Shown one piece after another: positions 27,601 through 30,600 of a DNA stretch of 42,776 nucleotides (within the stretch, counting starts at the first letter, position 1; every line of letters begins with the position of its first letter). Made by a program: the position numbers. This DNA is from a virus (lineage: Duplodnaviria; Heunggongvirae; Uroviricota; Caudoviricetes), in the IMG/VR virus record IMGVR_UViG_2874945390_000010, positions 1-42,776 of that record; one strand, written 5' to 3'.

Positions 27601-30600
27601 GCGGGTAAGGTAAAACCAAATCTATGAGCATCAGTCACCTCTTTTACCCAAGCACGCCAGTTGCAAAGGCGTGATCAAGAAAACGAAAAATTAAATCAAC
27701 CTGAGAACCATGCTTTTCTTCGAACGCCAGCGGATCCGCATGAAGCTCGTTGTGATGCTCCCGACACAGCGGTAGCGTGAAAATATCGTGAGATTTTGTC
27801 CCCATTCCGCCCTGACCATGACCAATCAGGTGATGGGGATCGTCGGCTGGCTTACCACAACACGCACACGGCTGTGTCTTCACCCAGCGTGTGTATTTCT
27901 CGTTAACCCAGCGGCGACGTTTAGGTCGTTTCATGAAAGATTCCGGAGACTCAGGATCAACGGCAATGCTGACCACCGTCTTTTCCTGTGGTGGGTTCTG
28001 TTGCTGGTGGGCGTGAGGCAGCGGCGCAAGATTTTTTGTGCGCTGTTTCAGTATGCTGGTGGCGGTCTGCTCTCCCGGTACGATGTCGCTTTCACGGTAC
28101 ATTGAGCGGATTTTTTCCGCACGCAACCCCAGCGAACGACGTAATACCGCTTCCGGTAGCGCGTCCGCCACCTGATTGCGGACCGCCCACCAGGATAATT
28201 CAGCCAGAGATAATTCACGCTCCTGCGTACCGCTTATTGCGTGACCGATGACGTCAATCATCCATGCTGACAGGTTTTGATGAGCAAGTTGCTCGAGTGA
28301 TTCGGATGTCTGGTCACGCAGCTGGTTGTCGCAGTGCCAGCACAACACCATTGCGCCGGTACCATAACGGTGAATGACGGTTTCGCTGTGATGATAATCG
28401 CCGTGTGGCCACTGGCAGGATTTAATATGGCGCAACAGCCAGTCAGACAATGCACCAGCACCACCAGCAGCACGAATCACCCGTGCGTTACTGAAAAACG
28501 GCAGCAATGTTTTGTCTTCCACCAGCGGCTGGCGAGCGGCAGGAACGACCCCGGACGGCAGATTACGCATGCTTTTCGGTTCCGGCTCCACCAGTAACCG
28601 GGTATTGTGGAATACCGGCATGGATTCACGGCCCGGCTTAACGATCACCAGCCCGAGTTCCGGTACCAGAACAGGTCGAAGTAATACCCGCACGTTACCT
28701 CCAGATGCGTTGCTGGAATGTGCGGGACGGACGCGGTGGGCGTTCGGAGTAAGGCAATCTGACTGAGATTATCCAGTGACGGTAGTCGAGGCTAAGGGCT
28801 TTTTTAACCTCGTATCCGCGCCTGCGGTAACACTGAATTATCCATTCAGCCTGCTCTTCAGTGCATGGTGGATGCTGGAACCAGTCCGATTTGAATGCAT
28901 GAAAACGCCGTCCGCACCTGCTGGCAAAGACGGCAGAATCATCAGAATTGTGTAATTTGGTATCGTGCGCCATCGGTTGTCTCTGCTGGCGCAGCAGGTG
29001 CCAATTGTTCAGGCTGGCGTATAAAGTATAAATAAACTGGTTCCAGTGTAAAGCCCCTACATTAATGGAATAAAAGTCAAACAACAGATTGTTGGGATAA
29101 ACACAACGCTTATTATTAAAAGCGATTAGATAAATTAAATTTTAATGTTATGCAATTTTACCAGATCACCATAACATCTCGTTTGAAACCACCGAAACAA
29201 CAACCATATCAATATTGATTATGTTAAAGTGAGTAAATATGGAAAACAACAAATCTGCACATTACGCTCCTTTTTTATCTGTGATACTTTTTGTTTTATG
29301 CTGTGTGTGGGCATTATTTTTATAAAAATATTTACAGATAAAATAAACCCGCCGAAGCGGGTTAAGTGCGGGTGCATTGAGGATGCCTGACACATCAGAG
29401 GTGGCGAGGGATTTCTCCCTCGCCGGGTCTCTTACTCCTCAGGTTCGTAAACTGTGAAGACAGCGACCTCCGTCTGGCCGGTTCGGATTCGTACCTCGCA
29501 GAGGTCTTTCCTCGTTACCAGTGCCGTCACTATGACGGTTAAACAGATGACGATCAGGGCGATTAACATCGCCTTTTGCTGCTTCATAGCCTGCTTCTCC
29601 TTGACCTTTCGGTCCGTAAGAGGCTAATCTCTATGTGTCGCATAGATATGGCCTCAGATTAATGTTAAACGTCTTGCAGGACGCGTAATGTTACCTGGGG
29701 CTTTTCTCTATCTGCCGTTGGTGTTCATGCCCGAGGCAGATAGCCTCAAGCACCCGCAGTCATTCTACTTAACTAAGATTTCCCCGCAAACCGTTTTTGT
29801 CCAGCACAATAAATATCCAACTAAACCAATGGAGTTCGCTGTATTTACCGCCAGTATTCAATGCACATGACCGCCATGAACACCCCTAAAAAAATGGCAT
29901 TTATATATCCAAATATTAATATCAAAACATCAACTTTTTCCATATACCTTGCTGTGAAGATGATGGGCATACATGATACGAACAACCAGAACGCAACAAA
30001 CAAAAACTGCAATGCGTTTTTCATTATTCCTCCTACAATCAATGTGCAATTACATTTAAACACACCTCAATTTGGCCGGACATATAAATATCTAAACTAG
30101 AAAAAATCACTTACATAGCGTTACAAACTCTTTAGTCTAAAGGTTCATCGTAAAACATTCCCCATACTTATCAGTCCGTTCCGCGCCAGGTAGCTTATTG
30201 CCTTATCTGGCAACCTATAATCAGGTTTCCGCTTTTTCAGTTGGCTGGTCGTTTAACCGACATAGTTAACCCATTAATCTAAATAGCTGCGCGGAATAGT
30301 AGATCACTTTGAGGGAACTTAGCCCGGATTGTGCGATCTGATCAATCGCCAAATCAAAACAAATCACCAACCGGACTGAGCAATGCCGATCATAGCACCA
30401 ATTTCCCGTGACGAACGACGCCTGATGCAGAAAGCCATCCATAAAACACACGATAAAAATTATGCCCGCAGACTGACTGCCATGCTGATGCTGCACCGGG
30501 GCGACCGTGTCAGCGACGTTGCCAGAACGCTCTGCTGCGCCCGTTCCTCTGTTGGACGCTGGATTAACTGGTTCACGCAGTCGGGTGTTGAGGGACTGAA

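What the first reader, a model, noticed from the sequence alone, without database searches (positions are those of the whole stretch)
29845..30024. Strongly initiated 59-aa two-helix membrane protein in an AT-rich island
The ORF has a perfect AGGAGG SD 5 nt upstream of the ATG and encodes two hydrophobic helices. It sits in AT-rich DNA between hok and IS630, a typical moron context, and matches no family I recognise. Small membrane proteins here are often superinfection-exclusion or abortive-infection factors.
Basis: inference. Interest (0 to 1): 0.45.

Follow-up and report, generated by a model that had tools for sequence, protein, structure and literature searches.

The report
Unannotated two-helix prophage membrane protein gene
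The 59-codon reading frame is a real gene for a tiny two-helix membrane protein carried by E. coli prophages next to a hok/sok toxin cassette. It belongs to a small E. coli-only family that reference annotation misses, and what it does is still unknown.

Summary
The ORF is on the minus strand (ATG 30024, TAA 29847-29845). AGGAGG (30034-30029) is 4 nt from the ATG, not 5. The ORF encodes two hydrophobic helices in a 32-37% GC island between hok/sok and an IS630.

It is a real gene. An exhaustive HMMER search found a 59-aa paralogue at 39% identity in a prophage remnant at the Rac attachment site. DNA similarity between the two starts exactly at the ATG and has no gaps. Differences by codon position are 26/16/31, and dN/dS is about 0.19. 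In a neutral simulation, 1.8% of sequences kept the frame open and 0 of 20,000 reached the observed protein similarity. The paralogue is also followed by a hok remnant, so the ORF-hok pairing is ancestral.

The family has two clades, in 1569 and 1045 of 5426 complete E. coli genomes. RefSeq leaves both unannotated, and neither matches Pfam, PHROGs, NCBIfam, PADLOC or PDB.

No promoter or terminator of its own was found, so "moron" is only partly supported. A superinfection-exclusion or abortive-infection role is untested. The most likely picture is a helical-hairpin inner-membrane protein, co-transcribed with the early-right operon, acting through conserved small and polar residues in its helices. 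This is a new small family of a known kind, of moderate interest.

The parts
29845..30024 (-). Small ORF (clade A of the family): 59 codons plus TAA, encoding a two-helix membrane protein
   Evidence: A 39%-identical paralogue of the same length. Protein-level constraint.
30029..30034 (-). Shine-Dalgarno AGGAGG, 4 nt (AATA) before the ATG
   Evidence: The motif plus ATG occurs twice in the window against 0.25 expected. The start region is an exact match in 95 IMG/VR contigs.
29950..30015 (-). Predicted transmembrane helix 1 (residues about 4-25). Conserved W13, S17, C18, P20, I21, I22, T24.
   Evidence: Hydropathy, AlphaFold2 helix 2-24, invariant columns.
29860..29928 (-). Predicted transmembrane helix 2 (residues about 33-55). 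Conserved F38, G39, N42, A43, G47, F49, giving G39xxxA43xxxG47 small-residue spacing.
29888..29894 (-). T7 homopolymer run inside the ORF (codons 44-46). Frameshifted variants in the protein database start diverging here.
   Evidence: Sequence. Frameshifted variants P0019, P0021, P0024, P0025 and P0028 and L177.
29811..30145 (.). AT-rich island that carries the ORF. Homology to other hok cassettes (933W hokW) stops at about 29810.
   Evidence: GC profile. Phage matches end at query position 410. The island is in 1569 of 5426 complete E. coli genomes.
29823..29844 (-). 22 nt just after the stop codon that still align with the paralogue locus
   Evidence: The ungapped alignment runs from the ATG to 22 nt past the stop.
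29432..29587 (-). hok toxin gene, immediately downstream on the same strand
   Evidence: PF01848, E=2.6e-22. Annotated hokD in relatives.
29585..29755 (-). hok leader / sok-mok regulatory region. The sok RNA itself lies at about 29636-29706 on the + strand, by homology to 933W sokW.
   Evidence: Rfam RF01794, 100.8 bits. 933W annotation.
29762..29790 (-). Probable hok promoter (TTTGCG-17-TAGAAT), read by eye. It starts 55 nt after the small ORF's stop.
   Evidence: Inference from the sequence and from where the Rfam model starts. The consensus scan did not pick it up.
29346..29363 (-). Intrinsic terminator after hok. It is the first terminator downstream of the small ORF.
30282..31434 (+). IS630 (1153 bp) inserted in CTAG with TA duplication, 257 nt upstream of the ORF's ATG. 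It separates the ORF from the upstream early genes.
   Evidence: No complete E. coli genome has this junction.
31466..31721 (-). Frameshifted remains of the upstream early gene (85 aa when intact in phage vB_EcoS-640R1)

Best explanation
Shown:
- The minus-strand ORF 30024-29845 is a real protein-coding gene.
- It belongs to a two-clade family found only in E. coli and Shigella. Clade A sits in the early-right ('nin-like') region of Qin-like lambdoid prophages. Clade B sits in a prophage remnant at the Rac attachment site.
- In both clades the gene lies directly upstream of a hok cassette, which is intact here and truncated in clade B. The two-gene arrangement is therefore inherited from one ancestor.
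- Translation starts at the ATG at 30024, behind a canonical AGGAGG.

Predicted:
- The product is a helical hairpin in the inner membrane with almost nothing outside the bilayer.
- The charge pattern, clearest in clade B (R2 and K3 at the N-terminus, E26 and E30 in the loop), suggests both ends face the cytoplasm and a loop of about 7 residues faces the periplasm.

Inferred:
- The gene has no recognisable promoter or terminator of its own. It is probably transcribed with the prophage's early-right operon, and that transcript would run on into hok/sok as far as the hok terminator.
- In this window an IS630 257 nt upstream cuts it off from that operon.
- The residues shared by both clades are small or polar and lie inside the helices (S17-C18-x-P20, T24, G39xxN42-A43xxxG47), plus the C-terminal E-x-W-R. 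That pattern points to action inside the membrane, either by self-association or by binding a larger membrane protein.

Best guess for the role: a dispensable accessory factor that alters a host membrane function. Possibilities are blocking phage DNA entry, abortive infection, or mild membrane perturbation. Which one cannot be decided from sequence.

The confidence given (0.7) is for the core claims: a real gene, a two-helix membrane protein, and family membership. The transcription inference is about 0.5, and no specific role exceeds about 0.25.
For: Real gene:
- Exhaustive HMMER over 1.84 billion representatives found P0036, 59 aa, aligned end to end, E=8e-9. BLASTP gives 39% identity, 73% positives and no gaps.
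- DNA similarity begins exactly at the ATG and is ungapped at 61%.
- Differences by codon position are 26/16/31, with dN 0.45 and dS 2.4.
- In a neutral simulation using the same 73 substitutions, 1.8% of sequences kept the frame open and 0 of 20,000 reached the observed BLOSUM62 score of 155.
- All five other frames have stops in one or both sequences, including the opposite-strand ORF that some phage records annotate.
- 92 of the 94 start-anchored IMG/VR copies that can be read to a stop codon carry an intact 59-codon ORF.
- The SD-plus-ATG motif is rare and marks gene starts. With AGGAGG, 0 of 5000 shuffles give such an ORF.

Membrane hairpin: hydropathy and AlphaFold2.

Conserved residues.

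Ancestral link to hok: the clade B locus has an 80%-identical, 66-nt remnant of hok codons about 23-45 just downstream.

Operon context.

No own promoter or terminator.

Variable-cargo position: LF82 Tritos carries an FRG-domain gene at the same spot, and 933W has hok elsewhere without this ORF.
Against: - There are no expression data for this ORF, and no paper holds the peptide.
- Within clade A the polymorphisms are 7-9 nonsynonymous to 1-2 synonymous. That shows no current purifying selection, though the power is low.
- Diversity inside the ORF is no lower than in its immediate flanks once mosaic flanks are set aside.
- Frameshifted and truncated variants exist, several starting at the T7 run.
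- NCBI's PGAP pipeline does not call the gene.
- Only two clades are known, so the conserved-residue pattern rests on little depth.
- The promoter scan is crude. It also misses the hok promoter that I identified by eye. So the absence of a promoter is weak evidence.
- The functional role is pure inference.
Confidence: 0.7

Rival explanations
1. Prophage defence factor. The protein is made in the lysogen and blocks superinfecting phages, either by interfering with an inner-membrane component needed for DNA entry or by collapsing the membrane on infection.
For: - It is a small inner-membrane hairpin.
- It sits in AT-rich DNA, at a prophage position that holds other accessory cargo in relatives. 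LF82 Tritos has an FRG-domain gene and lysogen-expressed genes around hokD.
- It lies next to hok/sok, a cassette reported to exclude T4 (my recollection of Pecota and Wood 1996, not checked here).
Against: - No PADLOC or PHROG hit.
- No promoter that would give expression in a lysogen.
- Its orientation fits the repressed early-right operon.
- No phenotype data.
Confidence: 0.22
2. A small membrane toxin in its own right, like a type I toxin or a holin. It would oligomerise through the G39xxxA43xxxG47 face and depolarise the membrane, possibly acting together with Hok.
For: - Size, extreme hydrophobicity (GRAVY 1.32) and small-residue spacing in helix 2, conserved in both clades.
- Physical and ancestral linkage to a hok toxin cassette.
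- The strong SD would need tight control. Frameshift variants are fairly frequent, which would fit a costly gene.
Against: - No antisense RNA, promoter or terminator on the opposite strand, and no unusual RNA structure.
- No similarity to Hok (hhalign probability 2.1%) or to the prophage's own P21-type holin (0.2%).
- It lacks the charged C-terminal tail typical of holins and lies far from the lysis cassette.
- Clade B stays intact in 1045 genomes with no visible regulator.
Confidence: 0.15
3. A partner of Hok: a modulator or immunity-like protein that binds Hok in the membrane, or a leader ORF whose translation affects folding of read-through hok mRNA.
For: - It sits directly upstream of hok on the same strand with no terminator between them.
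- The adjacency is ancestral to both clades.
Against: - The linkage traces to one ancestral arrangement, not to repeated independent associations.
- Many hok cassettes lack the ORF (933W, LF82 Tritos and others).
- The ORF stays intact where hok has been destroyed, by an IS in a large clade A lineage and by deletion in all of clade B.
Confidence: 0.08
4. Not a functional gene today: a chance or decaying ORF in T-rich, AT-rich DNA, where a T at the second codon position automatically gives hydrophobic residues.
For: - An ORF of this length arises in 17.5% of shuffles.
- The coding strand is T-rich.
- Within-clade changes are mostly nonsynonymous.
- PGAP does not call it.
- This prophage is decaying, with an IS630 and a frameshifted neighbour.
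Against: - Divergence between the clades is constrained at the protein level (0 of 20,000 simulations; dN/dS about 0.19).
- Both clades share exactly the same start, stop and length.
- The SD is perfect and invariant.
- GC at the third codon position is 0.50, against 0.32 and 0.27 at the first and second.
Confidence: 0.1
5. The real feature is on the other strand or is RNA: either the 79-aa plus-strand ORF (29861-30100) that phage records annotate as 'hornerin', or a non-coding RNA.
For: Two GenBank phage records annotate the plus-strand ORF as 'hornerin', and a third (PhiR42_1) annotates it as a hypothetical protein.
Against: - That frame has stop codons in the paralogue, and there is no SD before its ATG.
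- No PHROG hit.
- No Rfam hit in the island.
- Folding z-scores are -1.07 and -0.14.
Confidence: 0.03

Closest known systems
Hok/Gef type I toxins (Pfam PF01848), the neighbouring gene
   Same: A small, very hydrophobic, inner-membrane protein carried by prophages. It is physically and ancestrally linked to a hok cassette.
   Different: No sequence relationship (no Pfam hit; hhalign probability 2.1%). It has two helices rather than one helix plus a periplasmic tail. It has no mok-like leader ORF or sok-like antisense RNA of its own.
Class II holins and pinholins such as phage 21 S (PF04971). Their properties are from my own knowledge.
   Same: About 60-70 aa, two transmembrane helices, and glycine-zipper-like spacing of small residues in helix 2.
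   Different: No HMM or profile match. It is not in the lysis cassette: the prophage has its own P21-type holin at 24317-24589. There is no basic C-terminal tail and no dual-start motif.
Small phage-encoded inner-membrane exclusion proteins, such as HK97 gp15 and T4 Imm. Named from my own knowledge, not tested here.
   Same: A tiny membrane protein encoded by a phage or prophage in DNA of atypical composition and dispensable for growth.
   Different: No sequence similarity was found to anything in PHROGs, PADLOC or BFVD. No promoter for lysogen expression was found. No phenotype is known.
Bacterial small membrane proteins that regulate larger membrane proteins (AcrZ, MgrB, MgtS, SgrT and others). 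Properties are from my own knowledge; a review turned up (PMC12648545) but I did not read it.
   Same: Under 60 aa and almost wholly membrane-embedded, with conserved small and polar residues inside the helices that suggest helix-helix contacts.
   Different: Those proteins are mostly single-pass and chromosomal. This one is a two-helix hairpin restricted to prophage DNA of E. coli and Shigella, and no partner is known.

Membership tests
Hok/Gef (PF01848) | Match to the family HMM | tested here: not met
   No Pfam hit at E<=1. hhalign against the window's Hok gives probability 2.1%.
Hok/Gef (PF01848) | Single transmembrane helix with a periplasmic C-terminal part, plus an overlapping mok frame and a sok antisense RNA | tested here: not met
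   Two helices are predicted. The Rfam sok hit (29585-29755) belongs to the neighbouring hok, and nothing was found in 29811-30145.
Type I toxin-antitoxin toxin (generic) | Small hydrophobic peptide | tested here: met
   59 aa, GRAVY 1.32.
Type I toxin-antitoxin toxin (generic) | Cis- or trans-encoded antisense RNA controlling translation | tested here: inconclusive
   No promoter-like or terminator-like site on the opposite strand, no Rfam family, and no structure signal. A novel sRNA cannot be excluded.
Type I toxin-antitoxin toxin (generic) | Toxicity on over-expression | not testable with these tools
   Needs an expression experiment.
Class II holin / pinholin (PF04971 and relatives) | HMM match, position next to the endolysin, and a charged C-terminal tail | tested here: not met
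   No Pfam hit. hhalign against the window's own P21-type holin gives probability 0.2%. The lysis cassette lies 5 kb away, past the Q gene. The C-terminus is only E-Y-W-R.
Moron (autonomous accessory gene in a prophage) | Composition unlike the surrounding phage genes | tested here: met
   GC 0.32-0.37 against 0.5-0.58.
Moron (autonomous accessory gene in a prophage) | Present in some related phages and absent from others | tested here: met
   The island is in 1569 of 5426 E. coli genomes. It is absent from LF82 Tritos and 933W, which do carry hok.
Moron (autonomous accessory gene in a prophage) | Its own promoter and terminator, with expression from the repressed prophage | tested here: inconclusive
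   No consensus promoter in the 286-nt upstream spacer. The best lenient hit scores only 8 of 12. The only terminator is the one after hok. The scans are crude, and expression was not measured.
Known anti-phage defence proteins (PADLOC-DB 2.0) | Match to any model | tested here: not met
   No families at E<=1.
The new two-clade family itself (clade A in Qin-like prophages, clade B in the Rac-site remnant) | 59 aa; two hydrophobic helices; invariant W13, S17, C18, P20, I21, I22, T24, F38, G39, N42, A43, E56, W58, R59 | tested here: met
   Alignment A2, BLASTP E=1e-19 for the pairwise comparison, HMMER E=8e-9 against the whole library.

The most novel reading that the evidence does not exclude
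The small ORF and hok form one functional two-gene membrane module inherited together. The hairpin protein would either tune or guard against Hok in the membrane, or be a second effector released with it. Alternatively, the ORF founds a new family of prophage exclusion or abortive-infection proteins that act inside the inner membrane. Either reading would make this an uncharacterised effector present in roughly a third to a half of E. coli genomes.
Probability: 0.15. Interest if true: 0.6.

Novelty: new member of a known kind. Interest (0 to 1): 0.36.

Why it matters
Small membrane proteins are routinely missed. RefSeq leaves this one unannotated in every listed copy, although clade A is in 29% and clade B in 19% of complete E. 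coli genomes. Some phage records annotate the wrong strand instead. The comparative evidence here justifies adding the gene to annotation. It also gives experimenters a defined candidate: 59 aa, two helices and a handful of invariant residues. Its position suggests what to test. It lies in a variable-cargo spot of lambdoid prophages beside a hok/sok cassette, which points to phage exclusion, membrane toxicity or interplay with Hok. If none of these holds, it is one more conserved prophage orphan of unknown role.

Tried and rejected
- Family libraries (Pfam, PHROGs, NCBIfam, PADLOC) gave nothing for the ORF.
- A profile of both clades against PDB sequences gave nothing.
- Foldseek of the AlphaFold2 model against BFVD and PDB gave only generic helical hairpins, all with E>1.
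- A profile search of 5.8 billion proteins, a metagenome scan, one genome per GTDB species, and tblastn against phage and plasmid records found no member outside the two E. coli/Shigella clades.
- Rfam and RNA folding of both strands of the island gave no RNA signal.
- Full-text search for the peptide found 0 papers. Searches on hokD, prophages and small membrane proteins found nothing about this ORF.
- I hoped to use the published LF82 lysogen RNA-seq, but prophage Tritos lacks the ORF.
- In a protein-selected sample the ORF looked far less polymorphic than its flanks. That did not hold in a start-anchored sample. The excess in the flanks comes from mosaic or replaced segments and one or two outlier haplotypes. 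I dropped that argument.
- Within-clade dN/dS is uninformative.
- I rejected the 72-aa GTG-started version that many GenBank records use. The extension contains the SD and has no counterpart in the paralogue, whose similarity starts at the ATG.
- A 25-nt imperfect direct repeat brackets the ORF, and a 16-nt inverted repeat lies nearby. I noted them but did not interpret them; they may be chance.
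Full report
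**1. What is there**

The ORF lies on the minus strand. Its ATG is at 30024-30022 and its TAA at 29847-29845. It encodes 59 residues: MKNALQFLFVAFWLFVSCMPIIFTARYMEKVDVLILIFGYINAIFLGVFMAVMCIEYWR.

A perfect AGGAGG sits at 30034-30029. AGGAGGNNNNATG occurs only twice in the whole window against 0.25 expected, both times at the start of a minus-strand ORF.

There are two hydrophobic stretches, about residues 4-25 and 33-55. Both exceed the usual Kyte-Doolittle threshold (19-residue maxima 2.26 and 2.43). AlphaFold2 on the small family alignment gives two helices, 2-24 and 28-58, with mean pLDDT 73.6.

GC falls to 0.32-0.37 between 29800 and 30200, against 0.5-0.58 on either side.

**2. Surroundings**

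Downstream on the same strand lies a complete hok/sok cassette:
- hok at 29587-29432 (PF01848, E=2.6e-22).
- The leader and sok region at 29585-29755 (Rfam RF01794, 100.8 bits).
- A terminator at 29363-29346.

Upstream lies an IS630 at 30282-31434. It inserted in CTAG with TA duplication, 257 nt from the ATG. None of 5426 complete E. coli genomes has this junction.

The wider context is the early-right arm of a Qin-like lambdoid prophage, read on the minus strand. A repressor-like gene is divergent on the plus strand. The minus-strand order is then a cro-like HTH gene, YdaT, a replication gene, DUF977, DUF7167, a 58-aa gene, a frameshifted 85-aa gene, [IS630], the small ORF, hok/sok, a 129-aa gene, DUF968, RusA, antiterminator Q, tRNA-Met and a P21-type holin.

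**3. Is it more than chance?**

ORF length alone is not significant. An ATG-ORF of 59 codons or more appears in 17.5% of dinucleotide shuffles of the island. With an SD-like motif the figure is 0.4%, and with AGGAGG it is 0 of 5000. GC at the third codon position is 0.50, against 0.32 and 0.27 at positions 1 and 2, which is typical of coding sequence.

**4. The decisive evidence: a diverged paralogue**

All close relatives are at least 90% identical and come from E. coli or Shigella. An exhaustive HMMER pass over 1.84 billion cluster representatives found P0036/P0042. It is also exactly 59 aa and aligns end to end (E=8e-9). BLASTP gives 39% identity, 73% positives and no gaps.

This paralogue lies between a truncated integrase next to ttcA and uspF-ompN. 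That is a prophage remnant at the Rac attachment site. It is present in 1045 of 5426 complete genomes.

The comparison of the two loci supports a protein-coding gene:
- At the DNA level the loci align from exactly the ATG to 22 nt past the stop, ungapped, at 61% identity.
- Differences by codon position are 26, 16 and 31. Nei-Gojobori dN is 0.45 and dS is 2.4.
- I re-placed the same 73 substitutions at random. Only 1.8% of the simulated sequences kept the frame open, and none of 20,000 reached the observed BLOSUM62 score of 155.
- All five other frames carry stops in one or both sequences. That includes the plus-strand ORF that some phage records annotate, labelled "hornerin" in two of them.

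Similarity starts at the ATG, and the AGGAGG lies inside the 72-aa extension. The 72-aa GTG-started version used in many GenBank records is therefore wrong.

**5. What within-clade variation does and does not say**

A sample anchored only on the start region gave 95 IMG/VR contigs, of which 94 can be read to a stop codon. Of those, 92 carry an intact 59-codon ORF.

Diversity is too low to test selection. Variants are 7-9 nonsynonymous to 1-2 synonymous. The ORF is no less polymorphic than its immediate flanks once mosaic flanks are set aside. My earlier contrary impression came from a biased sample. Frameshifted and truncated forms exist, several starting at a T7 run at 29888-29894.

The gene has clearly been under protein-level constraint over the long term. 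Present-day constraint is not shown.

**6. Family and distribution**

The family has two clades and nothing beyond them. I searched one genome per GTDB species, IMG/VR, a metagenome scan, a profile search of 5.8 billion proteins, and six-frame searches of phage and plasmid records.

The clade A island is in 1569 of 5426 complete E. coli genomes and in three phage records. RefSeq annotates nothing at either locus in all the rows listed. GenBank and UniProt do hold "hypothetical protein" entries.

Eighteen columns are identical across the 10-sequence alignment: M1, L5, L8, W13, S17, C18, P20, I21, I22, T24, L36, F38, G39, N42, A43, E56, W58 and R59. G47 and F49 are nearly invariant. This gives G39xxxA43xxxG47 small-residue spacing in helix 2.

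**7. Link to hok**

In clade B the ORF is followed, after about 55 nt, by a 66-nt stretch that is 80% identical to hok codons about 23-45 of this window. So the ORF-hok adjacency goes back to the common ancestor of both clades.

It is one ancestral arrangement, not repeated association:
- Many hok cassettes lack the ORF (933W, LF82 Tritos).
- The ORF survives where hok has been destroyed, by an IS in a large clade A lineage and by deletion in clade B.

**8. Expression logic (inferred)**

No sigma-70-like site was found on the ORF's strand, either in the window or in an IS-free relative. A lenient scan of the 286-nt upstream spacer gives only one hit, scoring 8 of 12.

No terminator separates the ORF from the upstream genes or from hok. 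The first terminator is the one after hok.

The simplest reading is co-transcription with the early-right operon, with the transcript running on into hok/sok. The scan is crude, though. It also misses the hok promoter that I picked out by eye (TTTGCG-17-TAGAAT, 29790-29762). In this window IS630 now stands between the ORF and the operon.

**9. Mechanism**

Predicted: a helical hairpin in the inner membrane. The charge pattern in clade B (R2 and K3 at the N-terminus, E26 and E30 in the loop) suggests both ends are cytoplasmic, by the positive-inside rule.

Inferred: the conserved small and polar intramembrane residues point to helix-helix contacts, either self-association or binding to a larger membrane protein.

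Role: an accessory factor at a variable-cargo spot of the prophage. LF82 Tritos has an FRG-domain gene there and lysogen-expressed genes around hokD. Exclusion or abortive infection, a membrane toxin, and a Hok partner are the live options, at roughly 0.22, 0.15 and 0.08. None can be tested here.

**10. Comparison with known families**

- Not Hok.
- Not a P21-type holin, which the prophage already has in its lysis cassette.
- Not in PADLOC or PHROGs.
- No structural match better than generic hairpins.
- No structured RNA.

It meets two moron criteria, composition and presence/absence among relatives. It does not visibly meet the third, which is autonomous transcription signals.

**11. Verdict**

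This is a real small membrane-protein gene, unannotated in RefSeq, that founds a two-clade family restricted to E. coli and Shigella. It is a new member of a known kind (prophage-borne small membrane proteins) and its function is unknown. Interest is moderate, about 0.36. It matters for annotation and as a well-defined experimental candidate, but nothing yet shows an unusual mechanism.

Noticed in passing
window 30282-31434: IS630 (1153 bp, transposase on the + strand) is inserted in a CTAG site with TA duplication (30280-81 and 31435-36). None of 5426 complete E. coli genomes shares this junction, so the window probably comes from a Shigella-like or otherwise unsampled lineage.
   Followed up: partly
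window 31466-31721 (-): The early gene upstream of the island is 85 aa and intact in phage vB_EcoS-640R1. Here it is split by a frameshift into 36-aa and 45-aa pieces. PGAP marks the equivalent as a pseudogene in a relative.
   Followed up: partly
window 29861-30100 (+): Three GenBank phage records annotate the opposite-strand 79-85 aa ORF instead of the real gene: ON470612 and ON470619 as 'hornerin', PV340562 as a hypothetical protein. That frame has stops in the paralogue, so this looks like a misannotation.
   Followed up: yes
L182 6001-6300 (E. coli CP042246.1, Rac attachment-site remnant): Strains with no Rac prophage here carry a truncated integrase, the 59-aa paralogue, a 66-nt remnant of the 3' part of hok, and degraded ABC-3-like fragments between ttcA and uspF. 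RefSeq annotates none of the paralogue or hok part.
   Followed up: partly
window 29888-29894: A T7 run inside the ORF is where several frameshifted protein variants in public databases start to diverge. This could be real slippage or homopolymer sequencing error.
   Followed up: partly
window 29796-29820 and 30071-30095: An imperfect 25-nt direct repeat (72% identity) brackets the small ORF. The downstream copy coincides with the edge of homology to other hok cassettes. It could mark an old insertion or recombination joint, or it could be chance.
   Followed up: no
window 29100-29300: A second, even more AT-rich stretch (GC 0.28-0.33) lies just past the hok terminator and before the 129-aa gene (PHROG 1212). 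A 20-nt inverted repeat lies at 29273-29343. I did not examine its content.
   Followed up: no
L270 (E. coli LF82 NC_011993.1 1616500-1623600): Prophage Tritos has a plus-strand FRG-domain gene where this window has the small ORF. It also has two genes downstream of hokD that a published RNA-seq study reports as expressed in the lysogen, with hokD RNA 3792-fold above background. The DUF977-DUF968 interval looks like a hotspot for accessory or defence cargo.
   Followed up: partly
proteins P0011 and P0014 (single contigs): In a few contigs the ORF's last codons are fused to a sequence that this window encodes on the opposite strand just past the hok terminator (…NPPKRVKCGC[I/V]EDA). That implies an inversion or rearrangement of the hok cassette in those genomes.
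   Followed up: no
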